Positions 4,903 to 31,222 of a stretch of 32,000 bases of DNA are shown here, one piece after another. The notes beneath the pieces were generated by a model. It was not told where the DNA came from and searched no databases. It worked only from the letters and a program-made list of their open reading frames with translations. The DNA is from Candidatus Poseidoniaceae archaeon (GTDB lineage Archaea > Thermoplasmatota > Poseidoniia > Poseidoniales > Poseidoniaceae), in contig CALSTM010000001.1 of assembly GCA_943789275.1 (NCBI GenBank), forward strand, positions 210,001 to 242,000, given 5' to 3'. The first letter of the stretch is position 1, and every line of letters begins with the position of its first letter. A program made the position numbers and the translations under genes.

Positions 4903-4978
4903 GGGCGTTTAGCTCAGTTGGAAGAGTGCTTGGTTTGCAACCAAGATGTCGTGGGTTCAAATCCCACAACGTCCACCA
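4903..4978 (+). tRNA. tRNA-Ala (anticodon UGC), CCA encoded
   Basis: Manual cloverleaf: acceptor GGGCGTT/AACGTCC with the G3:U70 alanine identity pair, D arm GCTC-AGTTGGAA-GAGT, anticodon arm CTTGG-TTTGCAA-CCAAG, T arm GTGGG-TTCAAAT-CCCAC, discriminator A, then CCA (4976-4978). Confidence 0.9.
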
Positions 4979-6890: not shown

Positions 6891-9365
6891 ATGAGAAAGA
6901 CGATTGTATTTTTGATGATGACCCTGCTTTTAGCCGCCAGCCTACCGCTCAATTCGAGCGCAGGACCGTCTGATGACATCCCCACAAACGCCGCAGGAAC
7001 AGGCGTACATGACTCATTGGTCGCTGCACTCGCCCATGCGGGTCTCGTCTCAACCCTCCAAGGGCCTGGGCCCTTCACCGTGTTCGCACCGACAGACCAG
7101 GCTTTCGCTGCTGCTGGAATCGACTTAGCCGATTTTGATACGCCCGAGGAAAACGCAACCCTCTCTGATATCCTGTTGCACCACGTCTACTCTGGTGAGG
7201 TTCAATCAAGCGCTGTTACTGACGGCATGATCGCAGAAATGGTGAACGGTGACAATGTGAAATTCGGAGTGAACGGGGCTACAGTGACCGTTGGAACGGC
7301 AACAGTAACAACCGCTGATGTCATCTCTTCAAACGGAATCATTCACGTTATCGATACCGTCTTGATGCCGCCCGTCGACATCCCAGCAACCGCTCAAAGC
7401 ACCACCATTCACGACACGTTGGTCAATGCCGTCATTCAGGCCGATCTCCTCACGACTCTCCAAAGTCCAGGGCCGTTCACCGTCTTCGCACCAACAGACC
7501 AAGCGTTCATCGATGCTGGTATCAACTTGGCAGCACTCGACACGCCTGAAGGTAAAGCAACGCTTTCCGACATCCTTCTCTACCACGTTGTCCCGTCTGA
7601 GGTTCCTGCCTCTGCAGTCACCGAATGTATGGTGGCTGATGCGGCGAATGGACAGCCTCTCGCCTTCACTGTGGGAGACGGCGTTATGGTCAACGGTGCC
7701 AATGTCACCATGACCGACGTCATTACCAGTAACGGACTTATTCACGTCATTGACAAAGTTCTAACTCCAAGCGACACACCAAACGATATTCCCCGAACTG
7801 CACAATGCACTGGCCTACATGATTCGCTGGTTGCAGGAGTGATACAAGCTGAATTGCTTGAAACTCTTCAAGGTCCAGGACCGTTCACGGTCTTCGCACC
7901 GACCGACCAAGCCTTCATTGATGCCGGGATTGATTTGGCAGCACTCGATACTCCCGAAGGCAAGGCTACACTTGCCGACATTCTTCTTTACCACGTTGTA
8001 GCCGGAGAGGTACCAGCAGCGAATGTTACTGATTGTATGTCCGCAACTGCCGCAAACGGTCAGCCCTTGGCGTTCACCGTTGATGGAACTGTTATGGTGA
8101 ACGGCGCTACTGTCATCCAAGCAGATGTCGGTACAAGCAACGGATTCATTCATGTTATCGACAAAGTGCTTACCCCAACCGATACGCCCAACGACATTCC
8201 ACGAACGGCACAATGCACCGGGATTCACGATTCTCTTGTTGCTGGGGTTATCCAAGCTGAACTTCTCGTGACGCTTCAGGGAACGGGACCGTTCACGCTG
8301 TTTGCACCGACGGACCAGGCCTTTGCTGATGCCGGAATCGACCTTGCGGCTCTCGATACTGCTGAAGGCAAGGCAGCGCTCACCGACATCTTGCTCTACC
8401 ACGTAATTGCTGGTCAAATTCCATCCACTGCAGTTACGGAGTGCCTCACAGCCAACACTGTCAACGGTAATCCTGTTGCCTTTACCGTAGGTGACAGCGT
8501 CATGATCAACGATGCTACCGTCACACTTGCTGATGTGAACACCAGTAACGGTGTCATCCACGTGATTGACAAGGTCTTGACACCGACCACTACACCAAAC
8601 GATGTTCCACGCACTGCACAATGCACCGGCATACACGACTCGTTGGTTGCCGGTGTCATTCAAGCAGGCCTTCTGGAAACCCTTCAAGGCCCTGGGCCAT
8701 TCACCGTTTTTGCTCCAACAGACCAAGCATTCACGGATGCAGGAATCGATTTGGCAGCACTTGATACTGCAGAAGGACAAGCGGCACTGAGCGATATTCT
8801 ACTCTACCACGTGGTTGCCGGTGAAGTTCCAGCAGCCAACGTCACCGACTGTATGACTGCTACTGCTGTAAACGGCAACCCACTCTCGTTCACCGTCGGC
8901 ACTTCTGTCATGGTCAACGGAGCAACCGTTACCGCAACAGATGTTGCGACAAGCAACGGCATCATCCACGTCATTGACAAGGTTCTATCACCAACCGAAA
9001 CTCCGAATGATATTCCTCGTACAGCTCAATGCACGGGGATTCACAACTCACTGGTTGCCGCCGTCATTCAAGCGGACTTGCTCGAGACGCTCCAAGGTCC
9101 AGGCCCGTTCACCGTGTTTGCACCAACGGACCAAGCGTTCACCGATGCAGGCATTGATTTGGGCGCTCTGGATACGCCAGAAGGTAAGGCAGCACTTGCC
9201 GACATTCTGCTCTATCACGTTGTAGCAGGTGATGTCCCAGCAGCCAATGTCACGGAGTGTATGACTGCAGACGCTGTCAACGGTCAACCGCTTTCGTTCA
9301 CTGTCGGAGATTCCGTCATGGTGAACGGCGCCACCGTCACATCTGCCGGATGTCAGCACCAGTAA
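6891..9365 (+). CDS. Fasciclin (FAS1) repeat surface protein, N-terminal fragment: signal peptide plus FAS1 domains 1-5 and most of domain 6, ended by a frameshift
   Basis: Signal peptide MRKTIVFLMMTLLLAASLP. FAS1 hallmarks recur every 136 aa: GPFTVFAPTD(Q)AF, LLYHVV and SNG(I/V)IHVIDKVL. The reading frame ends in the middle of domain 6 (…VNGATVTSAGCQHQ*). Confidence 0.9.
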   Translation: MRKTIVFLMMTLLLAASLPLNSSAGPSDDIPTNAAGTGVHDSLVAALAHAGLVSTLQGPGPFTVFAPTDQAFAAAGIDLADFDTPEENATLSDILLHHVYSGEVQSSAVTDGMIAEMVNGDNVKFGVNGATVTVGTATVTTADVISSNGIIHVIDTVLMPPVDIPATAQSTTIHDTLVNAVIQADLLTTLQSPGPFTVFAPTDQAFIDAGINLAALDTPEGKATLSDILLYHVVPSEVPASAVTECMVADAANGQPLAFTVGDGVMVNGANVTMTDVITSNGLIHVIDKVLTPSDTPNDIPRTAQCTGLHDSLVAGVIQAELLETLQGPGPFTVFAPTDQAFIDAGIDLAALDTPEGKATLADILLYHVVAGEVPAANVTDCMSATAANGQPLAFTVDGTVMVNGATVIQADVGTSNGFIHVIDKVLTPTDTPNDIPRTAQCTGIHDSLVAGVIQAELLVTLQGTGPFTLFAPTDQAFADAGIDLAALDTAEGKAALTDILLYHVIAGQIPSTAVTECLTANTVNGNPVAFTVGDSVMINDATVTLADVNTSNGVIHVIDKVLTPTTTPNDVPRTAQCTGIHDSLVAGVIQAGLLETLQGPGPFTVFAPTDQAFTDAGIDLAALDTAEGQAALSDILLYHVVAGEVPAANVTDCMTATAVNGNPLSFTVGTSVMVNGATVTATDVATSNGIIHVIDKVLSPTETPNDIPRTAQCTGIHNSLVAAVIQADLLETLQGPGPFTVFAPTDQAFTDAGIDLGALDTPEGKAALADILLYHVVAGDVPAANVTECMTADAVNGQPLSFTVGDSVMVNGATVTSAGCQHQ

Positions 9366-10233
9366 CGGTGTGATTCATGTTATCGACAAGGTATTGTCTC
9401 CAACAGACACGCCAAACGACATCCCCCGCACTGCACAATGCACCGGTATTCACGATTCTTTGGTCGCAGCAGTGGTACAAGCAGAGTTGCTGACCACATT
9501 GCAGGGAGATGGGCCATTCACCCTTTTCGCTCCAACCGACCAAGCGTTCATCGATGCCGGCATTGATTTGGCAGCATTGGATACCGCTGATGGTAAAGCT
9601 GCTCTTACGGACATCCTGCTTTACCACGTTGTTGCTGGAGCAGTCCCTTCCTCGGCAGTTACCGAGTGCATGTCGGCAAACGCCGTCAACGGTCAACCGC
9701 TCTGGTTCACCGTCGCAGACACCGTCATGGTCAACGGTGCCACCGTAACCTTGGCAGATGTGAACACAAGCAACGGCGTCATCCACGTCATCGATAAGGT
9801 ATTGACCCCCACCGATACACCAAACGATTTGCCTCGAACTGCTCAATGCACAGGTGTGCACAACTCACTGGTCGCAGCTGTAATTCAGGCTGAACTACTG
9901 GTCACACTCCAGGGTGAAGGGCCGTTCACGCTCTTTGCTCCAACGGACCAAGCATTTGCCGATGCTGGTATCGATTTGGCAGCATTGGACACCCCTGAAG
10001 GAAAGGCTGCATTGACGGATATTCTCCTCCATCACGTCTATTCAGGCGCTGTCATGAGTGCCAACATCACCGACGGAATGGTTGTACAGATGGTCAACGG
10101 CGACAACATTACGCTGACGGTCACCACCGGAATGAGTGCTTCAGTACGCATCGGAAACGCAACGGTTACCGGTGCTGATGTGATGACCTCCAACGGTATC
10201 ATCCACGTCATTGACAAGGTATTGATGCCTCCG
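6975..10233 (+). repeat. Coding tandem repeat: eight FAS1-domain units with a 408-nt period
   Basis: Unit starts (GAC/GAT ATT/ATC = D-I/V-P) are at 6975, 7377, 7785, 8193, 8601, 9009, 9418 and 9826. The spacings are 402, 408, 408, 408, 408, 409 and 408 nt. Confidence 0.9.
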
Positions 10234-10770
10234 GCTGAAGATGCAACAGACACGACCGATACGACAGGTCAGACAGACGGTGCAAGCGGTGATTCAGACG
10301 ATGAAGGCGGATTCCTATGGATTCTTATCGTTGTGATTTTGGTCCTTGGCGGTGGCGCAGGCGGATTGTTGTTCATGCGCAGCCGAAGTGGGGATGATGA
10401 TGCTTCGAAGAACTTCGTTCAGGGCGGATTGGAAAACCAATTGCAACCGATTTCAACCACGTCATATGCAGGGACTCAAGCAGCAGCTGCAACCGCATAC
10501 GCAACTGAACCCGTGCAGCAAACTCAGCAGTATCAGCAAGTTCAACAAACTCAACAGTACCAACCTGCACAGCAAGTCGCACAAGTTGCTCCAGTGACTC
10601 AAGTTGCTCAAGTTCAGCCGGTTCAGACTGTGGAAGTCATTCCACAACCTGCTGTTGCCGAACCTACAGTTCTGCGACAATGGACCGATGAAGCAGGTTA
10701 CACCTGGAGAGCAATGGACGACGGTAACACCTACTGGTGGACCGGAACTGAGTGGCAAAAGTACTCTTGA
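9370..10770 (+). CDS. Fasciclin repeat surface protein, C-terminal fragment: end of domain 6, domains 7-8, TM anchor and Q-rich tail. It continues 6891..9365 in the +1 frame
   Basis: It starts mid-domain at (V)IHVIDKVL, exactly the segment missing from the upstream ORF, and has no signal peptide of its own. A TM helix FLWILIVVILVLGGGAGGLLFM is followed by a Q/V/A/P-rich tail. Confidence 0.85.
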   Translation: MIHVIDKVLSPTDTPNDIPRTAQCTGIHDSLVAAVVQAELLTTLQGDGPFTLFAPTDQAFIDAGIDLAALDTADGKAALTDILLYHVVAGAVPSSAVTECMSANAVNGQPLWFTVADTVMVNGATVTLADVNTSNGVIHVIDKVLTPTDTPNDLPRTAQCTGVHNSLVAAVIQAELLVTLQGEGPFTLFAPTDQAFADAGIDLAALDTPEGKAALTDILLHHVYSGAVMSANITDGMVVQMVNGDNITLTVTTGMSASVRIGNATVTGADVMTSNGIIHVIDKVLMPPAEDATDTTDTTGQTDGASGDSDDEGGFLWILIVVILVLGGGAGGLLFMRSRSGDDDASKNFVQGGLENQLQPISTTSYAGTQAAAATAYATEPVQQTQQYQQVQQTQQYQPAQQVAQVAPVTQVAQVQPVQTVEVIPQPAVAEPTVLRQWTDEAGYTWRAMDDGNTYWWTGTEWQKYS

Positions 10771-17130: not shown

Positions 17131-17203
17131 GCCTGTGTAGCATAGCTGGTAGTGCATCGGATTTGTAATCCGAAGGCCGGGGGTTCGAGTCCCTCCGCAG
17201 GCT
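17131..17203 (+). tRNA. tRNA-Thr (anticodon UGU), no encoded CCA
   Basis: Manual cloverleaf: acceptor GCCTGTG/CGCAGGC, D arm GCAT-AGCTGGTA-GTGC, anticodon arm TCGGA-TTTGTAA-TCCGA, variable AGGCC, T arm GGGGG-TTCGAGT-CCCTC, discriminator T. Confidence 0.9.
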
Positions 17204-17258
17204 CCTCACATTCACTGTACGTGAAAAATCCGATAAGCCTCCATCCAGTCGGTTTTTC

Positions 17259-24004: not shown

Positions 24005-25189
24005 TCACTCGATATGTCGAAGCGTTTGTGCTTCAGCGATGTACTTGGGTCGATAAATTGGCGTACCCTTTCCGTTCCGCAAAACAGCACGCTCATCGAC
24101 GATTTGTGCACCAATTCCTGCTACACGAGCCCATCCAAAGAAGGTGGTGTAATAGGTTGGGTCGGTGAATCCAATGTGGTGCAATAAAGCGCCACTTGCG
24201 ATGTCGACGTTGGCGTTTGGGTTGCTGATCTTTGGATTCTCAGCAAGGACACGAGGAGCAACTTCTCGCAGCGTTGTAACAATTTTGAAGTTTTCATCGT
24301 CAGGGCAAATTTCAGAGCCAAGTTCGAATTGAGCAGTAGCGCGAGGGTCCTCAGCCCGAAGGACTGCGTGGCCAAAGCCAAAGATTGGTCGCTTTGCTTC
24401 GAGTTCAGCTCTCACGAATGCTTCAACCTCAGTCGGGTCGCTGGTTCCTACCTTCAGCACAAATTCAAGGCAGGATTGATTTGCTCGTCCGTGAAGAGGC
24501 CCTGAAAGTGCATTCATTGCACCGGCCATCGAAGAGTAAACGGTTGCCTTGCCTGATGCGATTGCCTTACCTGAAAAGGTCGAGAGGTTGCCGCCACCAT
24601 GGTCCATATGAAGAACGAGATAGGTAGAAATTACACGCTTCATTTTCGCTTTGTCGACCCCTTCAAAATCGAGCGCATGAACAAATCGGTCAACGAGGTT
24701 CATCGATGTGTCATCAGCGGGAATATCGTTTTCTCGACCTTCACGGATTCTGAAAATGAGTCCCATCAAACGAGGCATCCGTGCAACGAGATTCAGTGCA
24801 TCTTCCTTCCAATCCTCGGTAGTTTCCAACATGCCCAAGGTGTGTATGCCAATGCTGAGCCAGTCCATTGGATGGCCGAATTTTGGTAAAGTTTTGAGTA
24901 CAGATTCCAAATCTCCAGGGATCGCAGCACGGTTCGCAAGGTCTTGACGGAAAGCAGAGGACTGTTCATCGGTCGGAAGTTCCTTGTGGAACAAGAGGTA
25001 AACGATATCCTCAGGGTCAAATTGGGCCAATTCGGAAATCGGATAGCCGCAGTAATGAACGCCTTCAGTTGGCGTGACATATGAGGTGCGGCAAGTGCCA
25101 ACTGGAACGCCTCTTAGGCCAGTGTTGAGGTGGTTCTCAGTCACTTCCAAGAGTACCTTCTTGTCTGCCAAATGCTCCCCTCGGAACAT
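24005..25189 (-). CDS. gltA: Citrate synthase (or 2-methylcitrate synthase) family
   Basis: LSGPLHGRANQ, GFGHAVLRAEDPRA and DIASGALLHHIGF are conserved catalytic His/Asp regions of the citrate synthase family. Confidence 0.93.
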   Translation of the reverse strand: MFRGEHLADKKVLLEVTENHLNTGLRGVPVGTCRTSYVTPTEGVHYCGYPISELAQFDPEDIVYLLFHKELPTDEQSSAFRQDLANRAAIPGDLESVLKTLPKFGHPMDWLSIGIHTLGMLETTEDWKEDALNLVARMPRLMGLIFRIREGRENDIPADDTSMNLVDRFVHALDFEGVDKAKMKRVISTYLVLHMDHGGGNLSTFSGKAIASGKATVYSSMAGAMNALSGPLHGRANQSCLEFVLKVGTSDPTEVEAFVRAELEAKRPIFGFGHAVLRAEDPRATAQFELGSEICPDDENFKIVTTLREVAPRVLAENPKISNPNANVDIASGALLHHIGFTDPTYYTTFFGWARVAGIGAQIVDERAVLRNGKGTPIYRPKYIAEAQTLRHIE

Positions 25190-25264
25190 TCCACATACCT
25201 CTTTCGTATAAAGGCGGCTCCTCCATATTCAACTGTAAACAATCGGTAGAGTGCCTTCTGGACC

Positions 25265-25732
25265 CTATTTTCTGTTCCAAGGTGGCCAAGAACGGAAACC
25301 CTTTGTCGATTCTCTGTCGGCAAAGACGTGGATGCGGATTGACTCTCCATCAATCACAAGCGCATCATCAGCAGTAAGCCCGGGGCATGTTTCTTTGACT
25401 TCTTTCCAAGCTCGGTCTGTAGCGAGATTTTCGCCCCACCATGGGAACGCTGCACATTGTTGCGGGCGAACGGTATAGATGGTGCATTGCTTGTTGCCAT
25501 CCAAATAGATGCATACATCATCCACCGGGCGACTTTTGAGCACATATCGGCCGTCTAAGGTTTGCCGACAGTCTCTTTCCAACCAATCCTCCACTTCCAT
25601 TTTGTGATGCTTAGAAATTCGTTCAGCATCTGTTATGGACAGGTAAACAATTCCACCTGGCTCATCACAGCATTTGCCACAATTCGCTTGACATGAGAAG
25701 GCTACGCCTTCCATCCACCATGGAGGTCTCAT
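25265..25732 (-). CDS. YkgJ-family zinc/iron-chelating CxxCxxCC-domain protein
   Basis: CQANCGKCCDEPGG, then CIYLDGNKQCTIYTVRPQQCAAFPWW, matching the UPF0153/YkgJ pattern. Its ATG overlaps the upstream stop (ATGA). Confidence 0.7.
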   Translation of the reverse strand: MRPPWWMEGVAFSCQANCGKCCDEPGGIVYLSITDAERISKHHKMEVEDWLERDCRQTLDGRYVLKSRPVDDVCIYLDGNKQCTIYTVRPQQCAAFPWWGENLATDRAWKEVKETCPGLTADDALVIDGESIRIHVFADRESTKGFRSWPPWNRK

Positions 25733-27762
25733 TCTTCTTCACCCATCAGCATGTTTTGAACGGGGTGTAATCGGCCAAGACGAATTTTACGTGGCTCAGC
25801 GGTATGGTCAAGTAAATCCATCATGTCAACGCTGCCGGAGTCTACGTTCCATTCTCCAGCAGGCTCATGGCTGTCGAGAGGATCTACGGTTTTCTTTGAT
25901 GAGCGTCGACCGACTTTTCGCCTTTCTTTTTCAACAGTATCTTCTTCCATTTCTGGCCAAGGCTCGCGGTCGGGATCAAATTCAGTAAGATTACTTTCCA
26001 TTCTCCGTAATTCATCTGCGATGGATATCAATTCCTCGATGGTTGCTTCGGAAGTACGCTCGGAGAGGTCGTGAAGTTTTGATTCAAGATGACCAAGTTG
26101 TTTTGAACTCTCAATTAAATCCCTTTCAAAGGAATTGATTTTGCTATCGAATGCCTCATCCAAATCGGTCAACACATCAGCCGCCAGTCCGATATCACGG
26201 TCTTCAATTCGACCTTTGCGAGCAACAAGATGTTGCTCTCTCTCATGCATATTCAATACCGATGGTGCAGCAGGCGCTGTATCCTCCAATGCAATTTTGA
26301 GATATTCAGCGTGGCGTCTGTCACCTGATGCGGCGAGATCACGGGCGTCAAGTTCTGGTGGGATGTACTCGTCGACTCCGATTTCAGGTAACTCAGAATA
26401 GAGGTCTATACCTCCATGAACTTCGTCACTGTATACTGTGTCAACAGCAGAATTGATGAGTCGCATAGCGATGTCCTCTACTTTTTCTCGCTCCGCTAGA
26501 GGTTGCACCGATTGAAGGTCAAGTTGATTTGAAAGCAGGGCAGTGACGTCTTCTCCATCCAGTACCTCCTCACCGGATTGAAGAGCGAGAGCGACCAAGT
26601 CGAAATTGGCTTTTGTCGATTGCCATCCAATGGTATCTTTCAAGACCAGGCTTGCCAATTGACTGTCGTTCATCATGAGGCCTTTCTTGTGCGAAAGATG
26701 TCGTGCATAGAGAACCATGCTTGTCGATTGTGGAGGCTCAAGTTGCACCGAGGCTGCATGACGGGTGAGTTCCCACAGACGCGAGGTAGGCCAATCATCG
26801 GGAGTGCTCTTCGAAGTGAGCAGTACGTGAACGCCAAGATTGAGTGCATAGTCAACCATCATGCCAAGTTCGTGGGCGAGTTCGGGATGGTTCACGTGTG
26901 CGTCAATATCGTCAATTGCAAGCAATCTTGCGTTCACCAACGTATCTTGCCAGCCTTCTGGCAAGCGTTCCAATCCTGCGAACTCCGCACCTGTAAGCAG
27001 GTAGACATTCCCTTCTTGACGGCGCAGTACTGCTTGAGCAGTCGCATGAAGCAGGTGCGTTCTTCCTGTTTGTGATGCGCCGATGAAGAGGAGTGGGTTG
27101 AGTTGACCTCCAGGTGAATCAACCACCGCCTCAGCAGCCTGAGTTGCGCGTGTATTTTCTGGAATGCTAAACCACTGTTTGAAACTCTTCCGAACCTCGG
27201 GACGTAAACGTGATGGCCATACACCTTCAGTTGGGAGTATGACGCTGTGGTGGAACGGTGAAGTTTCATCGTCAGGTGCCAAATCGTTTGCAAGAATTTG
27301 GGTCGTAAGGCCACGATGGCCATCAAGAACCGACTTCCATACCGGGCTGCCATCGTGTTCCATCCCCAAGTAACCGTCTTCGACAGGCCCTTCCTGCTGT
27401 TCGATGGAATCGAATGTTCGTTGGCGTAACGACCGAATGCGACGTGCCGCTATGTCCGAGAGTGAATCTCCGTTGGATTGAAATTCGATGGCAGGCTTTC
27501 TTCGTTCAGTTTGCTTGCCCAAAACGCCGTTAGCTACCAATTGAAACGTCGGTCGCTCAACACTTTCAGTTCGTTGCAGCAGTGTGCCTTTACGTCGGTC
27601 CACGACATCATTCTTGCCGAGCAATCGATTCAGTTTCGAGTTCGAGGGTTCAGAACGCTGTCGATTCTGAGGTGCGATTCGTTCGATTCCTGAGCCAGTT
27701 TGGTCCAGTTTTTGTCGAGCAAGCTCAAGGGCAAGAGCGAGTTTCTCACGCCGTGGATTCAT
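25729..27762 (-). CDS. DnaA/Hda-family AAA+ ATPase-like protein with long disordered and coiled-coil flanks; no DnaA DNA-binding domain
   Basis: Residues about 195-400 (AVVDSPGGQLNPLLFIGASQTGRTHLLHA ... ARLLAIDDID ... VHVLLTSKSTPDDW ... SRLWELTRHAASVQLEPP) align motif by motif with bacterial DnaA domain III (NPLFiYGgvGlGKTHLLHA, LLlIDDIQ, iiLTSDrpP, SRf.wGl.v.iepP). The N-terminus is basic and disordered; the C-terminus is an acidic coiled coil. Confidence 0.7.
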   Translation of the reverse strand: MNPRREKLALALELARQKLDQTGSGIERIAPQNRQRSEPSNSKLNRLLGKNDVVDRRKGTLLQRTESVERPTFQLVANGVLGKQTERRKPAIEFQSNGDSLSDIAARRIRSLRQRTFDSIEQQEGPVEDGYLGMEHDGSPVWKSVLDGHRGLTTQILANDLAPDDETSPFHHSVILPTEGVWPSRLRPEVRKSFKQWFSIPENTRATQAAEAVVDSPGGQLNPLLFIGASQTGRTHLLHATAQAVLRRQEGNVYLLTGAEFAGLERLPEGWQDTLVNARLLAIDDIDAHVNHPELAHELGMMVDYALNLGVHVLLTSKSTPDDWPTSRLWELTRHAASVQLEPPQSTSMVLYARHLSHKKGLMMNDSQLASLVLKDTIGWQSTKANFDLVALALQSGEEVLDGEDVTALLSNQLDLQSVQPLAEREKVEDIAMRLINSAVDTVYSDEVHGGIDLYSELPEIGVDEYIPPELDARDLAASGDRRHAEYLKIALEDTAPAAPSVLNMHEREQHLVARKGRIEDRDIGLAADVLTDLDEAFDSKINSFERDLIESSKQLGHLESKLHDLSERTSEATIEELISIADELRRMESNLTEFDPDREPWPEMEEDTVEKERRKVGRRSSKKTVDPLDSHEPAGEWNVDSGSVDMMDLLDHTAEPRKIRLGRLHPVQNMLMGEEE

Positions 27763-29726
27763 TCGCCTTTCGCCTCCATTTCCTTGCGAAGCCGTTCCCT
27801 GTCTTCAAGTTCCCACACGCTGAGTTTATCTTCCAGTGAAGGTTTCGACTGCTGGCGAAAGGCACCTTCGCGACTTGGTTTTTCGTGTTGGTTTTGCTCT
27901 CTTGCACCGGGTCGGGCCATATGCGGGGTGAGTGATGTTTCGGTGTTGACCGGCTTCCTACTTTTCACCGCATCAAGTGGTCGATTCGGCAGGGGTGTCT
28001 TTGGAAGCCTATGTTCGCGGGTGTTGACATGTTGGCGAGTGGCATCCAGTACTGATGAATGTAATTTTGGAACAGCAGCCATTTTTTCAACCGCTCTCTC
28101 TTGTCGCTGCGTGTAGTTCTCAAGAGTCGAAGAGAACGCTTGCGGTGGTTGAATACTGCCTGCGTCCACTTCACTGAGTTCTTTTGCTTCAGGCGCATTT
28201 CTTACTGCTGCAAACAAAGCGCGCTGCTTTTTTTGGTTTGGTCGTGGCAAAGCCCTCTTTTTCTTCCTTCGAATCTTTTGCGCCTTTCGAGGGCCAGTTG
28301 ACTGCACGCCAGGCATGCGCTCTGCATGCGCACTCGCTGTATGTGAATGCTCAAATTGAGCGCTCGGAACAACTGGTTTAGCAACCTCTGGAAGGGTTCT
28401 TGGAATTGGAGCGTCAGTGGGCTGAGGTCTCTGTTCGATGGCCACCGGTTGTTGGTGGTTTGCAACTGGCTCAGCATTCTTGTTCGTCGGTTCCGGTTCT
28501 TCTTCATTGCTCCATTCTTGAACAACGGAATGCAGTGATTCTGTGGCGGCTTGAACTTCTTCTGACTCGGGAGCGTCGAATCCACCTTCCATCGTCCCAA
28601 AAACACTGGATTGCGGTGCGATAGGGCCGCCGTTCGATGACCAAATCGCTTGTTGCAGTTGTTGTTCAATCCATTCCCGTTCTTCTTCACTGGCTGGGGC
28701 GCATAATGGATGGTCAAGAAGAAGGTCGGGTTCAAGGTTCCAGTGCTCCAATACCGATGCCTCAAGGTCGGTCATGTAGCGTGAGAGGTGCTGGCGTGTG
28801 GTCATTGAAAAGGCGTTGAAGTCAGCTGTCGTCAAGAACAGATGGTCTTCCAAGCGAACTCCATCAACGATGTCTCGCAGGAAATTTACAATCCTGTCAT
28901 CACCGTGTATACTTGAGAGGTACTCGATTCCTTCAAGGACAACCACTGCGCGAAGGTTCTCCCACAGGAACGAGTCGATTTTACGTCGGATGTTTTCGAG
29001 GCTCGGTTCCGTAGATTTGGTGCTGCTGTTCTGCGAGAGCCAACTGCTTGACGCAATTGGAATGTTGTGTTCGACATTGAGTGATTCTATGTCGTGTCGG
29101 GCTAGAACCAGCAACGGGCGCCCGTGAACTGCCAATTGTCCCGCCAGGTCGAACAATGGTGATGGGTCTGGTGAGTCAAACAAGTACGCATCACCCGGCC
29201 GAAGCATTTTTTCCAATCCATCGAAACGCTGCATCATTGCACGGCTTCGTTGACGCAAAGCCTCGGGTGCTTCAACAACCGTTTCCATTTCCGGGAGGCG
29301 TTCTTCACGGCGCCAACTGCTTGTTCGATACCTTGCTTTTGACCACCACGGGTGCTCGTTATTTTCTGAACTCTGCTTTTGCTCGGTTTGCAACTGCGCT
29401 TCAGGGTACAGATCGAGAATCCGGTCCACATCAGACAGCGGCAACTCATGGACGGCAAGAAGTGAATCGAGGAGTGCACAATCGCTTTCGATGTCGAGTA
29501 AGGCTTCGAGAGCCATACTGATCGAGGTGGCTTCATGCACCGCCATCATGGGGATTCCCTCTTTGAAAGCAATGTGGCCTATGCGAGGCATTTGTTCCTT
29601 TGGCCGACGTTCAATACGCAGGTATCCCGTCGTCGATAATCTGGCGATGTCGGAGGAAAGAAGTTGCAATGAATCCGGTCCCCCTCGGCGGACTTCCGTA
29701 ACATCTCCTTGCGGCAATTCCACCAT
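27759..29726 (-). CDS. DUF835-like domain protein with an N-terminal GYLRIE...GxIxFxxG module and a basic, P/Q-rich disordered tail of about 300 aa
   Basis: Residues about 175-330 (GDAYLFDS...GRPLLVLARHDIESL...SWLSQ...ENLRAVVVLEGIEYLSSIHGDDRIVNFLRDIVD...HLFLTTADFNAFS) match the archaeal DUF835 pattern as I remember it (G..gLcitR, WLt, vvlLDglEYLi..ngf..vl.Fl..l.D). No Walker A motif is present. Confidence 0.6.
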   Translation of the reverse strand: MVELPQGDVTEVRRGGPDSLQLLSSDIARLSTTGYLRIERRPKEQMPRIGHIAFKEGIPMMAVHEATSISMALEALLDIESDCALLDSLLAVHELPLSDVDRILDLYPEAQLQTEQKQSSENNEHPWWSKARYRTSSWRREERLPEMETVVEAPEALRQRSRAMMQRFDGLEKMLRPGDAYLFDSPDPSPLFDLAGQLAVHGRPLLVLARHDIESLNVEHNIPIASSSWLSQNSSTKSTEPSLENIRRKIDSFLWENLRAVVVLEGIEYLSSIHGDDRIVNFLRDIVDGVRLEDHLFLTTADFNAFSMTTRQHLSRYMTDLEASVLEHWNLEPDLLLDHPLCAPASEEEREWIEQQLQQAIWSSNGGPIAPQSSVFGTMEGGFDAPESEEVQAATESLHSVVQEWSNEEEPEPTNKNAEPVANHQQPVAIEQRPQPTDAPIPRTLPEVAKPVVPSAQFEHSHTASAHAERMPGVQSTGPRKAQKIRRKKKRALPRPNQKKQRALFAAVRNAPEAKELSEVDAGSIQPPQAFSSTLENYTQRQERAVEKMAAVPKLHSSVLDATRQHVNTREHRLPKTPLPNRPLDAVKSRKPVNTETSLTPHMARPGAREQNQHEKPSREGAFRQQSKPSLEDKLSVWELEDRERLRKEMEAKGE

Positions 29727-29730
29727 ATTC

Positions 29731-29752
29731 GCTCACCCCTTCGGGGTGATGC
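29731..29752 (-). promoter_or_regulatory. Hairpin sequestering the SD-like GGGGTGA immediately upstream of the 27759..29726 start codon
   Basis: The minus strand reads GCA-TCACCCC-GAA-GGGGTGA-GC GAAT ATG. The 7-bp perfect stem has a 3' arm that is the only SD-like element (6 nt from the ATG), and flanking GC/GC can extend the stem. Confidence 0.3.
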
Positions 29753-29895
29753 TTACGAGACACTTCTTGAAAGGTCCGGCTCGTTTCATTCATCGAACAG
29801 CATTTCACGCCCTCGTAGATGGAGCCAAATCGAAGTTTCGGTGTTCTTAGAGCGAAGTACCGTGAAGTTGAAGGTGTTCACCCAAATGGTACACT

Positions 29896-30549
29896 ATGAG
29901 CGAGCGTCAGGCCGAATTGTCTGTAGAAATGCGACGCTTCAATGTTCTTCCAATCGCTCGACCTTTCACGGTACGGTTTGTGGGGTATCTCTTGGTTTAC
30001 GAAATGGGCGTTCTCCTCTTGTTTCGACTGCTGCTTCCTTTCATTGAGTACACTTTCCTGTTGTACCTGCTCATCATTGCCCTTTCCATCGGTGGGGGCC
30101 TCTACTTCTACCGTCGAGCACCGATGCTGAATATTCCTCTTGCTGTGAATATGAATCATCCCTTCATGAGCGATGCTGAACTCGGAAACGCAATGGTCAT
30201 GGTACAATTTTCGGATGGGGCTTGGGCAGACATAGGTAAGGGCAGAGTACGTTTGACGGCTGATGAGTTGATGGGAGGGACGTTGCTCATACGAGATGAC
30301 GACGACTATACCGTGATTGGGCATTTCAGTCATCGCCAACAATCGCACCCGTGGCTCAAACGATTCGTGATTCTCATCAACCAAGCCATTGCATTGCGCG
30401 ATGCGGTCAACGGTGATGAAGACACCATTGAGGATGCCCGTGAGCGTGAAGCCATTGATTACGGATTACTTGAGCGTTCATGGTTGGAGGTCGATGAAAA
30501 TCTAGAAATCGAACCTGAAGGCATTTTTAGCAAGTTGAGAAGAGAGTAA
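29896..30549 (+). CDS. Hypothetical membrane protein (two TM helices plus a soluble acidic C-terminal domain)
   Basis: 217-aa ORF with hydrophobic helices VGYLLVYEMGVLLLFRLLL and FLLYLLIIALSIGGGLYF. It was preferred over the overlapping antisense ORF 29878..30384 on composition. Confidence 0.45.
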   Translation: MSERQAELSVEMRRFNVLPIARPFTVRFVGYLLVYEMGVLLLFRLLLPFIEYTFLLYLLIIALSIGGGLYFYRRAPMLNIPLAVNMNHPFMSDAELGNAMVMVQFSDGAWADIGKGRVRLTADELMGGTLLIRDDDDYTVIGHFSHRQQSHPWLKRFVILINQAIALRDAVNGDEDTIEDAREREAIDYGLLERSWLEVDENLEIEPEGIFSKLRRE

Positions 30550-30610: not shown

Positions 30611-31222
30611 GTGGAAACATCGGCACGTTGGCAAGGGCGTCTCGACGCTTTAGGCTCAAAAGAGCGTGAAACTCTGCTGGGGACATCCCTTTCTCGTCGC
30701 TTCACCCTCTTGCCATTATGGCTCTCTCACCCGTCGAACATTTCTGCCTTTTACGGCCTCTTAGTTTCATTGGCGTTAATTCTGCCTTACCGATTTGCAC
30801 AAGCTTCAGACAGTTGGCTCACCAACTGGATTTTCCATTCTTCGCTGATTATGGTGGCATGCTTGCTGCTCGGAATGCTTTCTCTCATCATTGTTCGAGT
30901 TACAAAGCGTTTCCCAGTGACGCCTCCGCGGTATATTCTCTATCCGATGCCGTTTGTTGGATTTGCGCTGCTCACCATCTCCCTTACCGAGATGCTTGAA
31001 TTACCACAAAGTCTCATTTGGCTTCTTTTACTCCTCCCAGGTCCGATGTATGTTCATCTTTCTTGGGCTCCACGTTGGCGTCTTTTGTGCCAGCTTGAGG
31101 ACAACCAAAACCCGTTTGAAGGTCTCGAACACGAATACCAAGAACCATTGAACGATGCCGAAGAAATTGCTGGCGGAGACGATGAACTTCTTTCGGTCGT
31201 CGATGCACTGGAAGAAGAGTGA
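30611..31222 (+). CDS. Hypothetical polytopic membrane protein with an acidic C-terminus
   Basis: 203-aa ORF (GTG start) with 4-5 hydrophobic segments and a DAEEIAGGDDELLSVVDALEEE tail. No family recognised. Confidence 0.45.
   Translation: METSARWQGRLDALGSKERETLLGTSLSRRFTLLPLWLSHPSNISAFYGLLVSLALILPYRFAQASDSWLTNWIFHSSLIMVACLLLGMLSLIIVRVTKRFPVTPPRYILYPMPFVGFALLTISLTEMLELPQSLIWLLLLLPGPMYVHLSWAPRWRLLCQLEDNQNPFEGLEHEYQEPLNDAEEIAGGDDELLSVVDALEEE

What the first reader, a model, noticed from the sequence alone, without database searches (positions are those of the whole stretch)
25265..29726. Translationally coupled three-gene cassette: DUF835-like protein, then DnaA/Hda-family AAA+ protein, then YkgJ-type CxxCxxCC protein
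Three consecutive minus-strand genes are joined by ATGA stop/start overlaps. At 27759-27762 the sequence GGCGAATGAATCC encodes both ...KGE* and MNPRR. At 25729-25732 the sequence GAAGAATGAGACC encodes both ...EEE* and MRPPW. This arrangement is a hallmark of co-translated, stoichiometric partners. Gene 1 (655 aa) combines an N-terminal GYLRIE/GxIxF module, a DUF835-like core and a basic disordered tail of about 300 aa. Gene 2 (677 aa) places a DnaA-domain-III-like AAA+ module between a basic disordered N-terminus and an acidic coiled-coil C-terminus. Gene 3 is a small metal-cluster protein. I know of no characterised system with this composition. A DnaA-family ATPase is also unexpected in a genome that uses archaeal machinery (TFB, eL40). 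The complementary charge of the two disordered tails suggests the proteins interact. Citrate synthase follows 75 nt downstream on the same strand and may or may not belong to the unit.
Basis: partly seen in the sequence, partly recalled or inferred. Interest (0 to 1): 0.8.

Follow-up and report, generated by a model that had tools for sequence, protein, structure and literature searches.

The report
Conserved DnaA-like/iKaiC operon of Poseidoniales
Three overlapping genes found in every Marine Group II (Poseidoniales) archaeal genome examined encode a dead KaiC-like protein, a bacterial-type DnaA/Hda-like ATPase module with a degenerate active site, and a small cysteine-rich metal protein; the set is real and uncharacterised, and it looks like a regulatory scaffold rather than a replication initiator.

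Summary
Three minus-strand ORFs (655, 677 and 155 aa) are joined by ATGA overlaps. All three proposed Pfam families pass their curated cut-offs: DUF835, Bac_DnaA and CxxCxxCC.

The triad keeps the same order and place in every related locus checked, down to 27% identity. The −4 nt overlap is kept at 58/72 g1/g2 junctions and 68/77 g2/g3 junctions. Relatives were confirmed in 412 matching stretches of GTDB species genomes (listed titles almost all Poseidoniales or generic archaeal names).

- **g1:** an unassigned α/β N-domain, an inactivated RecA/KaiC-fold DUF835 core with no P-loop, and a disordered tail.
- **g2:** a true DnaA/Hda-type AAA+ module (TM 0.72–0.78) without DnaA domains I or IV. 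Its Walker-A "lysine" is R 56% / K 31% / C 11%.
- **g3:** a YkgJ-type protein, absent from two loci.

Citrate synthase has its own strongly conserved BRE/TATA-like box, so it is not an obligatory member. The DUF4388/PATAN idea for g1 was not confirmed (P≈0.02). The "complementary tails" claim is only half right.

My best reading is a co-translated complex of two pseudo-NTPases acting as a nucleotide-sensing scaffold. This is a new variant of known kinds, and its function is untested.

The parts
27759..29726 (-). g1: 655-aa protein made of an N-domain, a Trp-rich linker, a DUF835/iKaiC core and a disordered tail
   Evidence: ORF. Pfam DUF835 at 43.7 bits. 247 homologues, named ones from Poseidoniales/Euryarchaeota MAGs. 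AF2 model of aa 1-345, pLDDT 75.
29391..29726 (-). g1 N-terminal α/β domain (aa 1-112), holding the TGYLRIE and GHIAFKEG motifs; family unassigned
   Evidence: Predicted order β-α-β-β-β-β-α-β-α, pLDDT ~80. 27 invariant columns. No Pfam DUF4388 hit; DUF2226 at E=0.008 in 1 of 10 members. hhalign against PATAN gives P=0.02-0.03, empirical 4-5/200.
29202..29390 (-). g1 low-confidence linker (aa 113-175) with invariant W127, W128, W138, R140, R143-L144-P145 and P154-E155
   Evidence: pLDDT below 50. Invariant columns. Alignment.
28707..29201 (-). g1 DUF835 core (aa 176-340): RecA/KaiC-like fold without a Walker A motif
   Evidence: Foldseek hits RecA, FlaH (4yds) and KaiC CI at E 4e-5 to 1e-3. The sequence after β1 reads DSPDPSP instead of GxxxxGK[ST]. 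Galperin et al. 2018 class DUF835 as iKaiC.
27762..28706 (-). g1 tail, not modelled and inferred disordered (aa 341-655), net charge 0, with conserved short motifs
   Evidence: Alignment. Charge profile.
28167..28346 (-). Conserved basic patch of the g1 tail (aa 461-520, GPRKAQKIRRKKKR...)
   Evidence: +11 to +12 per 40 aa. The GPR..+I+RRKK motif is conserved across the family.
27759..27762 (-). ATGA overlap of the g1 stop and the g2 start
   Evidence: Read directly. −4 overlap in 58/72 loci.
25729..27762 (-). g2: 677-aa protein made of an N-region, a DnaA/Hda-type AAA+ module and an acidic helical C-terminal half
   Evidence: ORF. Bac_DnaA at 40.2 bits. Family profile hits the B. subtilis DnaA chain 8btg_A (its AAA+ region, residues 100-325) at E=1.1e-17. 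Foldseek hits DnaA domain III and Hda at TMt 0.72-0.78.
27223..27762 (-). g2 N-region (aa 1-180), mostly low confidence, mildly basic, with conserved motifs (SKLNRLLGK; LLQR..RPTF.LVAD.VLG; DG.PVW)
   Evidence: pLDDT profile. Alignment. Charge.
26527..27222 (-). g2 AAA+ base and lid (aa 181-412)
   Evidence: pLDDT 80-90. Aligns to DnaA residues 100-325 including the lid. Fold match.
27058..27081 (-). g2 Walker A, GASQTGRT (aa 228-235), with Arg in place of the catalytic Lys
   Evidence: Across 192 members the position is R107/K59/C21, while G233, S/T235, D284 and D285 are ≥97% conserved.
25978..26346 (-). g2 long helices (aa 473-595) inside the acidic C-terminal half
   Evidence: Helices H473-495, H505-514, H521-572 and H575-595. 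C-terminal half net charge −38.
25729..25746 (-). g2 C-terminal M-G-E-E-E-stop (ATG GGT GAA GAA GAA TGA). It also encodes the GGTGA Shine-Dalgarno site and the ATG of g3.
   Evidence: Read directly. 50/77 loci end in GEEE, almost always with a GGT Gly codon. Lost in L044, which lacks g3.
25265..25732 (-). g3: 155-aa YkgJ-type CxxCxxCC protein
   Evidence: Pfam at 45.8 bits. 52-95% identical across loci. Absent in L044 and L069.
29766..29779 (-). BRE/TATA-like box upstream of g1 (CCGGACCTTTCAAG)
   Evidence: A related box is visible at the same place in all 25 aligned upstream regions, most degenerate in L046/L068. It was the only match in the window to the regular expression used.
29731..29752 (-). 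g1 leader inverted repeat CACCCC-gaa-GGGGTG, which embeds the Shine-Dalgarno site
   Evidence: −14.3 kcal/mol, z=−2.8. 85.6% of cells paired in 15 loci, but no covariation.
25206..25220 (-). BRE/TATA-like box GAGCCGCCTTTATAC in the g3-CS spacer. It marks the downstream boundary of the unit.
   Evidence: A CTTTATAC or CTTATAC box is visible in the spacer of essentially all 54 loci. My regular expression scored 31 of them within 15-45 nt of the start codon. The TATA centre lies 35-39 nt before the start in 30 instances.

Best explanation
**What it is.** g1-g2-g3 is a vertically inherited three-gene operon found in Poseidoniales (Marine Group II archaea) and in no other lineage that the searches could identify. 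A BRE/TATA-like box and a Shine-Dalgarno-containing leader precede g1. The two internal boundaries are ATGA overlaps with Shine-Dalgarno motifs inside the upstream gene. The three proteins are therefore most likely made from one mRNA by coupled translation.

**The proteins.**
- g1 is an unassigned α/β N-domain, then an inactivated KaiC/RecA-fold DUF835 domain with no P-loop, then a disordered tail with one basic patch.
- g2 is a DnaA/Hda-type AAA+ module (base plus lid) without DnaA domains I or IV. A motif-bearing N-region and an acidic helical C-terminal half flank it.
- In g2 the nucleotide pocket is conserved (G233, S/T235, D284-D285, sensor-II Arg in 86% of members). The catalytic Walker-A residue toggles between R, K and C.
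- g3 is a Cys-rich metal-binding accessory that a few genomes lack.

**Most likely mechanism.** g1 and g2 assemble in fixed stoichiometry into a complex of two "dead" P-loop folds. g2 binds nucleotide but rarely or never hydrolyses it. The complex works as a nucleotide-state-dependent adaptor or scaffold. Conserved linear motifs in the disordered regions recruit partners. Functional analogues are Hda, ArlH/FlaH and the iKaiC output domains. It is not a replication initiator.

**Shown:** anatomy, folds, motif statistics, synteny and coupling geometry.
**Inferred:** complex formation, nucleotide binding and the scaffold role.
For: - **Gene order.** The same order, up2-up1 | g1-g2-g3-CS, appears in all loci that are long enough. 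This includes members at the detection limit (P0323 at 98 bits, P0305 at 106 bits).
- **Overlaps.** The −4 nt overlap is kept in 58/72 and 68/77 junctions.
- **Unit boundaries.** Conserved promoter-like boxes occur only before g1 and before CS.
- **g2 fold.** It matches DnaA domain III and Hda. NCBIfam equivalog cut-offs are missed by 4-7 fold, and no Bac_DnaA_C or DnaA_N domain is found.
- **g2 active site.** Walker A is R107/K59/C21 of 192 members, while the rest of the pocket stays conserved.
- **g1 core.** It has a RecA/KaiC/FlaH fold without a Walker A motif. Galperin et al. 2018 (PMC5847659) class DUF835 as iKaiC, an output domain of archaeal response regulators.
- **Motifs and charge.** Both proteins carry conserved short motifs inside low-confidence regions. 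The g2 C-terminal half has charge −38, and g1 has a conserved +12 patch.
- **No mobile-element signal.** No defence family matches, no close viral relatives exist, and the flanks are housekeeping genes.
Against: - No direct evidence exists that the proteins bind each other or bind nucleotide. No multimer prediction or experiment was possible.
- The whole neighbourhood, including CS and the divergent membrane genes, is also syntenic. Gene order alone therefore does not single out the triad.
- K-to-R Walker A variants of some AAA+ proteins keep weak activity, and 31% of members keep Lys. Hydrolysis may matter in part of the family.
- "Scaffold" is a weak functional statement, and the cellular process is unknown.
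- g3 is missing in L044 and L069, so the obligatory unit may be only g1-g2.
Confidence: 0.45

Rival explanations
1. Replication-linked regulator. A DnaA-family module, acquired from bacteria, was retained as an Hda/DnaC-like factor. Together with the RecA-fold g1 (compare the DnaC-DnaB loader-helicase pair) and the basic patch of g1, it would act on DNA or on the archaeal Orc1/Cdc6-MCM machinery to control initiation.
For: - Every characterised DnaA-family AAA+ protein (DnaA, Hda, DnaC/DnaI, IstB) works on DNA replication or transposition complexes. This is background knowledge.
- The best sequence and structure matches are DnaA domain III, Hda and DnaC.
- The g1 fold list includes the T7 gp4 helicase and RecA.
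- g1 has a conserved Lys/Arg patch.
- Raymann et al. 2014 infer that Marine Group II also took up bacterial DNA gyrase by an independent transfer.
Against: - g2 has no DNA-binding domain IV and no domain I.
- No Hda-type clamp-binding motif is visible in the N-terminus (read).
- The arginine-finger position aligns to Leu/Thr, and the Walker A Lys is not conserved.
- Marine Group II has canonical Orc1/Cdc6.
- The 32-kb window holds no replication gene, and its cumulative GC skew stays flat.
- Bacterial tandem DnaA-like proteins sit in MglA/MglB/PATAN operons. DnaA-type modules are therefore also recruited outside replication.
Confidence: 0.2
2. Archaeal counterpart of bacterial PATAN / MglA-MglB / DnaA-like polarity modules. 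The g1 N-domain would be a minimal PATAN domain. The pairing of PATAN with a DnaA-like AAA+ module would be an ancient functional link, controlling cell polarity, surface structures or motility.
For: - Thirteen bacterial loci encode parts or all of the array [PATAN-TPR]-Roadblock-Roadblock-small GTPase-tandem DnaA-like-[PATAN-TPR]; the contigs long enough show it complete, and the GTPase and DnaA-like genes overlap by 4 nt.
- The g1 N-domain aligns to the conserved N-half of PATAN in the expected motif order. g1 columns 15-63 match PATAN columns 11-50, including the tG.L.v ... G.i.F..G....A series.
- The Roadblock control gives P=0.73.
Against: - The similarity is not significant. hhalign gives P=0.02-0.03 with probability about 2%, and 4-5 of 200 shuffles reach the same score.
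- Pfam DUF4388 is not hit in any of 10 members, even at E≤10.
- Per domain, the tandem proteins (50-92 bits) are no closer to g2 than canonical DnaA or Hda (93-99 bits).
- No GTPase, Roadblock or TPR gene lies in the archaeal locus.
Confidence: 0.12
3. Neighbours by descent only. The three genes are co-transcribed for economy but act separately, and the overlaps are a by-product of genome compaction in streamlined marine archaea.
For: - The whole 10-kb neighbourhood is syntenic, including CS, GDPD in most lineages, and up1/up2.
- ATGA overlaps are common in compact genomes. This is background knowledge.
- g3 can be lost without loss of g1-g2.
Against: - g1 and g2 are never found apart in any locus or lineage examined, down to 27% identity.
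- Nearly all other neighbours in the window are not overlapped this way.
- g1 and g2 evolve fast, yet both keep matching sets of short motifs.
Confidence: 0.1

Closest known systems
Hda (DnaA-related regulatory inactivator, TIGR03420)
   Same: - It is a single DnaA-type AAA+ base-plus-lid module without DNA-binding domain IV.
- The predicted g2 core superposes on Shewanella Hda (3bos, 3sc3) and E. coli Hda (5x06) at TMt 0.65-0.77.
- It is a regulatory rather than an initiating member of the family.
   Different: - g2 scores 46.7 bits against a 194.8-bit equivalog cut-off.
- g2 is three times longer, with a 180-aa N-region and a 270-aa acidic helical tail.
- Its Walker-A Lys is not conserved.
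- No clamp-binding motif is visible.
- The host is an archaeon in which I found no report of a canonical DnaA.
DnaA domain III (Bac_DnaA, PF00308)
   Same: - It is the best sequence match (8btg, E=1.1e-17, aligned over residues 100-325) and the best structural match (8bv3, TMt 0.78, rmsd 3.4 Å).
- DnaA-family signatures are kept, including NPL..G, DD and the ..N.L.. helix.
   Different: - DnaA_N and Bac_DnaA_C domains are absent.
- g2 scores 47.6 bits against 343.9 for TIGR00362.
- The segment between Walker A and Walker B is shortened.
- The arginine-finger position is not Arg.
DUF835 / iKaiC output domains of archaeal signalling proteins; ArlH (FlaH)
   Same: - The g1 core passes the Pfam DUF835 threshold.
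- It folds like KaiC CI, FlaH and RecA.
- Galperin et al. 2018 describe DUF835 as a divergent, probably inactivated KaiC-superfamily domain found in REC-DUF835 response regulators of Methanomicrobia and Thermoplasmata.
   Different: - g1 has no REC, PAS or membrane input domain. It has a family-specific N-domain and a 315-aa tail instead.
- Its partner is a DnaA-type AAA+ protein.
- No such pairing was found in the searchable literature.
DnaC/DnaI-DnaB loader-helicase pair
   Same: A DnaA-family AAA+ protein is encoded next to, and presumably binds, a RecA-fold protein. DnaC is among the profile hits (6qel, E=1.4e-4). The T7 gp4 helicase is among the g1 fold hits.
   Different: - g1 lacks Walker A and the helicase motifs, and it belongs to DUF835 rather than DnaB.
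- g2 is closer to DnaA and Hda than to DnaC.
- The resemblance is one of architecture only.
Bacterial tandem DnaA-like proteins in MglA/MglB/PATAN operons (e.g. Gemmatimonadales HKV76304.1)
   Same: - They are non-initiator DnaA-family AAA+ proteins.
- They are translationally coupled by a 4-nt overlap to regulatory partners.
   Different: - They carry two AAA+ modules with intact GKT motifs.
- Their partners are a small GTPase, Roadblock and PATAN-TPR proteins, not DUF835 or CxxCxxCC proteins.
- Per-domain scores are no closer to g2 than canonical DnaA.
YkgJ/UPF0153 family (PF03692 CxxCxxCC)
   Same: g3 matches the model end to end (profile positions 2-85 of 85, 45.8 bits) and keeps the CxxCxxCC cysteines.
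   Different: - No NCBIfam model matches and no solved structure is related.
- The family itself has no established function.

Membership tests
DnaA (chromosomal replication initiator, TIGR00362) | Score at or above the equivalog cut-off | tested here: not met
   47.6 bits against 343.9.
DnaA (chromosomal replication initiator, TIGR00362) | C-terminal DNA-binding domain IV (Bac_DnaA_C) and N-terminal domain I (DnaA_N) | tested here: not met
   Pfam finds only Bac_DnaA in g2. A canonical DnaA scanned in the same way (P0307) shows all three domains.
DnaA/Hda-type AAA+ module (Pfam Bac_DnaA) | Pfam gathering score, and the DnaA-type AAA+ fold including the lid | tested here: met
   40.2 bits against 23. 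Profile hit to DnaA at E=1.1e-17. TMt 0.72-0.78 to DnaA domain III and Hda.
Hda (TIGR03420) | Equivalog cut-off | tested here: not met
   46.7 bits against 194.8.
Hda (TIGR03420) | N-terminal clamp-binding motif (QL[SP]LPL type; recalled from the literature) | tested here: not met
   No such motif appears in the aligned N-termini (MNPRREKLALALELARQ...). An archaeal PCNA-binding equivalent was not tested.
Catalytically active AAA+ ATPase | Walker A GxxxxGK[ST] lysine | tested here: not met
   GASQTGRT in the window. Family counts are R107/K59/C21 of 192.
Catalytically active AAA+ ATPase | Walker B acidic pair, sensor II Arg, arginine finger | tested here: inconclusive
   D284 and D285 are 97-98% conserved. 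Sensor-II Arg is present in 86% of members but is Gln in the window. The DnaA R285-equivalent aligns to Leu/Thr, with an R/K residue 1-2 positions later. Nucleotide binding itself is not testable here.
DUF835 (PF05763) / iKaiC | Pfam gathering score and RecA/KaiC-like fold | tested here: met
   43.7 bits against 33.1. Foldseek hits RecA, FlaH and KaiC.
Active KaiC/RecA ATPase | P-loop after strand β1 | tested here: not met
   The sequence is AYLFDSPDPSPLFD, with no GxxxxGK[ST].
PATAN / DUF4388 (PF14332) | Significant match to the family profile | tested here: inconclusive
   No Pfam hit in 10 members at E≤10. hhalign against 13 bona fide PATAN domains gives P=0.021-0.029 with probability ~2%. 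The empirical test gives 4-5/200. The motif order agrees but significance is lacking.
YkgJ / CxxCxxCC (PF03692) | Pfam gathering score with full-length model coverage | tested here: met
   45.8 bits against 23, profile positions 2-85 of 85.
Translationally coupled operon | Stop/start overlap conserved among orthologous loci, and a Shine-Dalgarno site within the upstream gene | tested here: met
   −4 overlap in 58/72 and 68/77 junctions. GGAGG lies 12 nt before the g2 ATG and GGTGA 7 nt before the g3 ATG.
Translationally coupled operon | A single polycistronic transcript | not testable with these tools
   Indirect evidence only: conserved promoter-like boxes lie before g1 and before CS, and none can fit at the overlaps.
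Anti-phage defence system (PADLOC) | Match to any defence model | tested here: not met
   No family matches any of the three proteins.

The most novel reading that the evidence does not exclude
Poseidoniales, among the most abundant planktonic archaea, depend on a lineage-defining complex. It would be built from a bacterial-type DnaA-family module turned into a nucleotide-sensing pseudo-ATPase, docked on an inactivated KaiC-like platform. This complex would couple metabolic or redox state to chromosome replication or cell-cycle control exerted on the archaeal Orc1/Cdc6-MCM machinery. Two observations motivate the metabolic link: the YkgJ-type metal protein, and a promoter-like motif shared with citrate synthase. 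If true, this would be an archaeal analogue of RIDA-type control, invented from borrowed bacterial parts.
Probability: 0.15. Interest if true: 0.85.

Novelty: new variant of a known kind. Interest (0 to 1): 0.6.

Why it matters
DnaA-family AAA+ proteins are treated as a bacterial hallmark. Here a divergent branch is fixed as a single, syntenic core gene in an entire, globally abundant and still uncultured archaeal order. It is always coupled to an inactivated KaiC-like protein.

- **A new pairing.** It adds a new combination of two pseudo-NTPases to the small set of known "dead ATPase" regulators such as Hda, ArlH and the iKaiC domains.
- **Annotation.** It corrects the automatic annotations of g2 homologues as "chromosomal replication initiation ATPase DnaA" and "DnaA/Hda family protein" in metagenome and MAG records.
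- **A natural experiment.** The Walker-A residue toggles between K, R and C, which bears on how much catalysis such modules need.
- **Testability.** Three soluble proteins can be expressed heterologously. More than 400 orthologue pairs are available for co-evolution analysis.
- **A further lead.** An uncharacterised tandem DnaA-like protein in bacterial MglA/MglB/PATAN operons suggests that DnaA-type modules have been recruited outside replication more than once.

Tried and rejected
1. **"Tandem bacterial proteins are the closest relatives of g2."** The ranking summed two domains. Per-domain scores place them no closer than DnaA or Hda. Rejected.
2. **PATAN/DUF4388 identity of the g1 N-domain.**
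   - The Pfam scan of 10 members was negative.
   - hhalign against 2 and then 13 PATAN domains, with and without the α-helical insertion, gave P about 0.02-0.05.
   - The last large protein search, seeded with the N-domain alignment, returned only fragments of the same family.
   - The result is inconclusive.
4. **Defence system or mobile element.** PADLOC was negative. The only viral hits were 22-24% identical generic AAA+ proteins. No repeats or integrases were seen, and the flanks are housekeeping genes. Rejected.
5. **The g1 leader hairpin as a structured RNA.** It is stable, but it shows no covariation because the 3' arm is the invariant Shine-Dalgarno site. No Rfam family matches.
6. 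**Weak Pfam hints in g2** (CATASP at E=0.011, Med21, VPS51). All fall far below their cut-offs and were ignored.
7. **The first metagenome scan** failed because the alignment was too diverse. The second used generic Walker-A patterns, so most of its 80 loci were canonical DnaA. Only 13 tandem-type operon loci were usable in all, including L088 and L089 fetched earlier.
8. **Makarova et al. 2017** (KaiC-like hubs, PMC5717392) is not held.
9. **Citrate synthase as a fourth member.** It has its own conserved promoter-like box, so it is not required for the unit.

Full report
**1. Observation**

The window contains three consecutive minus-strand ORFs: g1 at 27759..29726 (655 aa), g2 at 25729..27762 (677 aa) and g3 at 25265..25732 (155 aa). 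I read the junctions directly. ...GGCGAATGAATCC... encodes KGE-stop and MNPRR. ...GAAGAATGAGACC... encodes EEE-stop and MRPPW. Citrate synthase (CS, 24005..25189) follows after 75 nt.

Pfam confirms all three proposed families above their curated cut-offs:

| Protein | Family | Score (bits) | Cut-off (bits) |
|---|---|---|---|
| g1 | DUF835 | 43.7 | 33.1 |
| g2 | Bac_DnaA | 40.2 | 23 |
| g3 | CxxCxxCC | 45.8 | 23 |

The rest of the window is ordinary archaeal housekeeping. It holds TFB, PurA, PheRS, FolD, TatC, a DEAD-box helicase and two tRNAs. Base composition is even and cumulative GC skew is flat.

**2. Who carries it**

- g1 has a 100%-identical database entry. Named relatives are "Candidatus Poseidoniaceae/Poseidoniales archaeon".
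- g2 has 90 homologues down to 27% identity. Most are unnamed; some are auto-annotated "chromosomal replication initiation ATPase DnaA".
Of the 80 loci listed, nearly all carry Poseidoniales or generic archaeal names, and three carry bacterial names.
- Those three bacterial-named MAG contigs carry the archaeal gene order and are probably mis-binned.

**3. Synteny and coupling**

- In every locus long enough to judge, the order is up2(−) up1(−) | g1 g2 g3 CS.
- This also holds for members recovered only by an exhaustive profile search (P0236).
- It holds for members at the limit of detection too (P0323 at 98 bits and P0305 at 106 bits against the family profile).
- I saw no archaeal relative of g2 outside this locus type.
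- The −4 nt overlap is kept at 58 of 72 g1/g2 junctions and 68 of 77 g2/g3 junctions. Most of the rest are −8 or −11.
- GDPD, further downstream, moves in some lineages.
- g3 is absent in L044 and L069 and was not called in L087.

**4. Unit boundaries**

*The CS promoter.*
- The g3-CS spacer carries a near-invariant BRE/TATA-like box, GAGCCGnCTTTATAC, at window 25206-25220.
- A CTTTATAC or CTTATAC variant is visible in essentially all 54 spacers examined. The TATA centre lies 35-39 nt before a start codon in 30 instances, and that start codon is preceded by a Shine-Dalgarno site.
- By this spacing, CS in the window probably starts at TTG 25171 rather than ATG 25189.

*The g1 promoter and leader.*
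- A related box, GAGCCGGACCTTTCAAG (29766-29779), lies about 45 nt before the g1 ATG. A related box is visible in all 25 aligned upstream regions, most degenerate in L046 and L068.
- An inverted repeat, CACCCC-gaa-GGGGTG, follows and embeds the Shine-Dalgarno site. Its predicted energy is −14.3 kcal/mol with z = −2.8.
- The repeat shows no covariation, because its 3' arm is invariant.

*Interpretation.*
- In this window, a CCG...CTTT[A/C]A box precedes only g1 and CS, and none of the 18 other gene starts inspected.
- I conclude that g1-g2-g3 is one transcription unit and that CS is separately promoted. The shared box raises the possibility of common regulation.
- No Rfam family lies in the cassette.

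**5. g2**

*Fold and family.*
- The family profile hits B. subtilis DnaA (8btg) at E = 1.1e-17. The alignment covers the AAA+ base and lid: profile positions 178-395 against DnaA residues 100-325.
- The AF2 model has pLDDT 80-90 over aa ~200-410.
- Its best structural matches are DnaA domain III (8bv3, TMt 0.78; 2z4r, 0.76) and Hda (3bos, 0.72; 5x06, 0.77).
- It is not an orthologue of either protein. NCBIfam gives 47.6 bits against 343.9 for DnaA, and 46.7 bits against 194.8 for Hda.
- DnaA_N and Bac_DnaA_C are absent. A canonical DnaA scanned in the same way shows all three domains.

*Active-site residues across 192 non-identical members.*

| Position | Finding |
|---|---|
| Walker-A "lysine" | R 107, K 59, C 21 |
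| G233 | 99% conserved |
| S/T235 | 99% conserved |
| D284 and D285 | 97-98% conserved |
| Sensor-II Arg | 86% of members; Gln in this window |
| DnaA arginine-finger position | aligns to Leu/Thr |

The pocket is therefore under selection, but the catalytic lysine is not.

*Flanking regions.*
- The N-terminal 180 aa are mostly low-confidence but carry conserved motifs.
- The C-terminal half has long helices at aa 473-595 and a net charge of −38. The family median is −40.
- The conserved C-terminal GEEE is encoded by GGT GAA GAA GAA TGA. GGTGA is the Shine-Dalgarno site for g3, and the Gly codon is almost always GGT. The motif is lost in L044, which lacks g3. At least part of this "acidic tail" conservation is therefore a nucleotide-level constraint.

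**6. g1**

- The AF2 model of aa 1-345 (pLDDT 75) shows a compact N-domain (aa 1-112), a low-confidence Trp-rich linker with invariant residues, and a Rossmann-like core.
- The best matches of the core are RecA, S. acidocaldarius FlaH (4yds) and KaiC CI, at E from 4e-5 to 1e-3.
- The position of the P-loop reads DSPDPSP.
- Galperin et al. 2018 (PMC5847659) class DUF835 as iKaiC. They describe it as a divergent, possibly inactivated KaiC-superfamily domain in REC-DUF835 response regulators.
- The tail (aa 341-655) is net neutral, with a family median of −10. An acidic stretch is followed by a conserved basic patch, GPRKAQKIRRKKKR, at +12 per 40 aa.

**7. The DUF4388/PATAN idea**

- Pfam finds no DUF4388 in g1 or in 10 isolated N-domains at E ≤ 10. 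One member hits DUF2226 at E = 0.008.
- I built a 13-sequence PATAN profile from bacterial loci. hhalign aligns g1 columns 15-63 to PATAN columns 11-50 in the expected motif order, but with P = 0.021-0.029.
- Column-shuffled queries reach the observed score 4-5 times in 200. The Roadblock control gives P = 0.73.
- Homology is therefore neither shown nor excluded.

**8. A side discovery and a corrected inference**

- The exhaustive profile search ranked bacterial proteins of about 650 aa with two Bac_DnaA domains above canonical DnaA. Those with a source name are labelled Gemmatimonadales "DnaA/Hda family protein".
- Per-domain rescoring showed that this ranking is an artefact of summing two domains. 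The tandem proteins score 50-92 bits per domain, against 93-99 bits for DnaA and Hda.
- Their context is still notable. Thirteen loci encode parts or all of the array [PATAN-TPR]-Roadblock-Roadblock-small GTPase-tandem DnaA-like-[PATAN-TPR]; the longer contigs show it complete, and the GTPase and DnaA-like genes overlap by 4 nt.
- The MglA/MglB-PATAN link is known (Wuichet & Søgaard-Andersen 2014, PMC4316618). That paper does not mention a DnaA-like member.
- This shows that DnaA-type modules are used outside replication.

**9. How it most likely works**

*Shown.* The unit is one conserved operon with coupled-translation geometry. It encodes an inactivated RecA/KaiC fold, a DnaA/Hda fold with a conserved pocket but a variable catalytic residue, conserved linear motifs in disordered regions, and a metal-cluster-type accessory.

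*Inferred.* g1 and g2 form a stoichiometric complex. g2 binds nucleotide with little or no hydrolysis, and the nucleotide state gates partner recruitment. The comparison is with Hda, ArlH/FlaH and the iKaiC output domains. I put this at 0.45.

*Rivals.*
- A replication-linked Hda/DnaC-like regulator (0.2). Against it: there is no DNA-binding domain, Marine Group II has Orc1/Cdc6 (Raymann et al. 2014), and the locus has no replication context.
- An archaeal version of the PATAN/MglAB/DnaA-like modules (0.12).
- Mere neighbours by descent (0.1).
- Defence or mobile-element readings are rejected.

**10. Novelty**

Searches for DnaA together with Poseidoniales or Marine Group II find only one virus paper, which I did not open. 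DUF835 appears in a single paper. The archaeal replication phylogenomics paper never mentions DnaA.

The parts belong to known superfamilies. The combination, the archaeal DnaA-family branch and the K/R/C toggling appear undescribed. I class the finding as a new variant of a known kind, with interest 0.6.

Noticed in passing
window 25206-25220 (−), 25171: A near-invariant BRE/TATA-like box, GAGCCGnCTTTATAC, lies in the g3-citrate synthase spacer; a CTTTATAC or CTTATAC variant is visible in essentially all 54 loci. By its 38-39 nt spacing to the start codon, CS in this window probably begins at TTG 25171 and not at the annotated-style ATG 25189.
   Followed up: yes
window 29766-29779 and 25206-25220 (−): In this window, the unusual CCG...CTTT[A/C]A promoter-like box precedes only g1 and citrate synthase, and none of the 18 other gene starts inspected. 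This hints at co-regulation of the operon and CS by a common factor or a common BRE type.
   Followed up: partly
window 29731-29752 (−): The g1 leader has an inverted repeat, CACCCC-gaa-GGGGTG, that sequesters the Shine-Dalgarno site (−14.3 kcal/mol, z=−2.8). It is 85.6% paired in 15 loci but shows no covariation, because the 3' arm is the invariant Shine-Dalgarno site. It may act as a translational gate or a 5'-end stabiliser.
   Followed up: partly
window 25729-25746 (−): Dual coding: the conserved g2 C-terminus G-E-E-E-stop is GGT GAA GAA GAA TGA, which also forms the GGTGA Shine-Dalgarno site and the ATG of g3. The Gly codon is almost always GGT. L044, which lacks g3, has lost the motif.
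   Followed up: yes
window 29896-30549 (+) and 30611-31222 (+): Two family-less predicted membrane proteins (217 and 203 aa, the second with an acidic tail) are transcribed divergently from g1. They are syntenic with the operon in all loci long enough to show them. They may be membrane partners, but this was not tested.
   Followed up: partly
L089:1-8271; also L088, L093-L100, L102-L104, L133: A recurrent bacterial operon (source-named examples: Gemmatimonadales): TPR, PATAN(DUF4388)-TPR, TPR, two Roadblock/LC7 proteins, a small Arf/Rag-like GTPase, a 650-aa protein with two intact DnaA-type AAA+ domains (4-nt overlap with the GTPase gene), and PATAN-TPR. No paper found with the terms PATAN, MglA and DnaA reports the tandem DnaA-like component, and the one opened (PMC4316618) does not mention it.
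   Followed up: partly
L044, L069 (and L087:7872-8515): g3 (CxxCxxCC) is missing between g2 and CS in two species-level genomes, and was not called in a third. The obligatory pair is therefore g1-g2.
   Followed up: partly
L048, L058, L080: Contigs assigned to bacterial MAGs (Rhodobiaceae, Salipiger bermudensis, Salinimicrobium) carry the complete archaeal up2-up1-g1-g2-g3-CS gene order. They are probably mis-binned Poseidoniales contigs.
   Followed up: no
window 6891-9365 (+) and 9370-10770 (+): Two adjacent large fasciclin-repeat proteins (six and two FAS1 stretches; 544 and 198 bits) are likely cell-surface or adhesion proteins of this planktonic archaeon.
   Followed up: no
window 27058-27081 (−); family-wide: The Walker-A catalytic position toggles among Arg (56%), Lys (31%) and Cys (11%) within one orthologous family, while the rest of the P-loop is fixed. 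This is a natural series for testing how much catalysis the module needs.
   Followed up: yes
window 4903-4978 (+), 17131-17205 (+): tRNA-Ala(TGC) and tRNA-Thr(TGT) genes. These are the only Rfam or ARAGORN hits in the window.
   Followed up: yes
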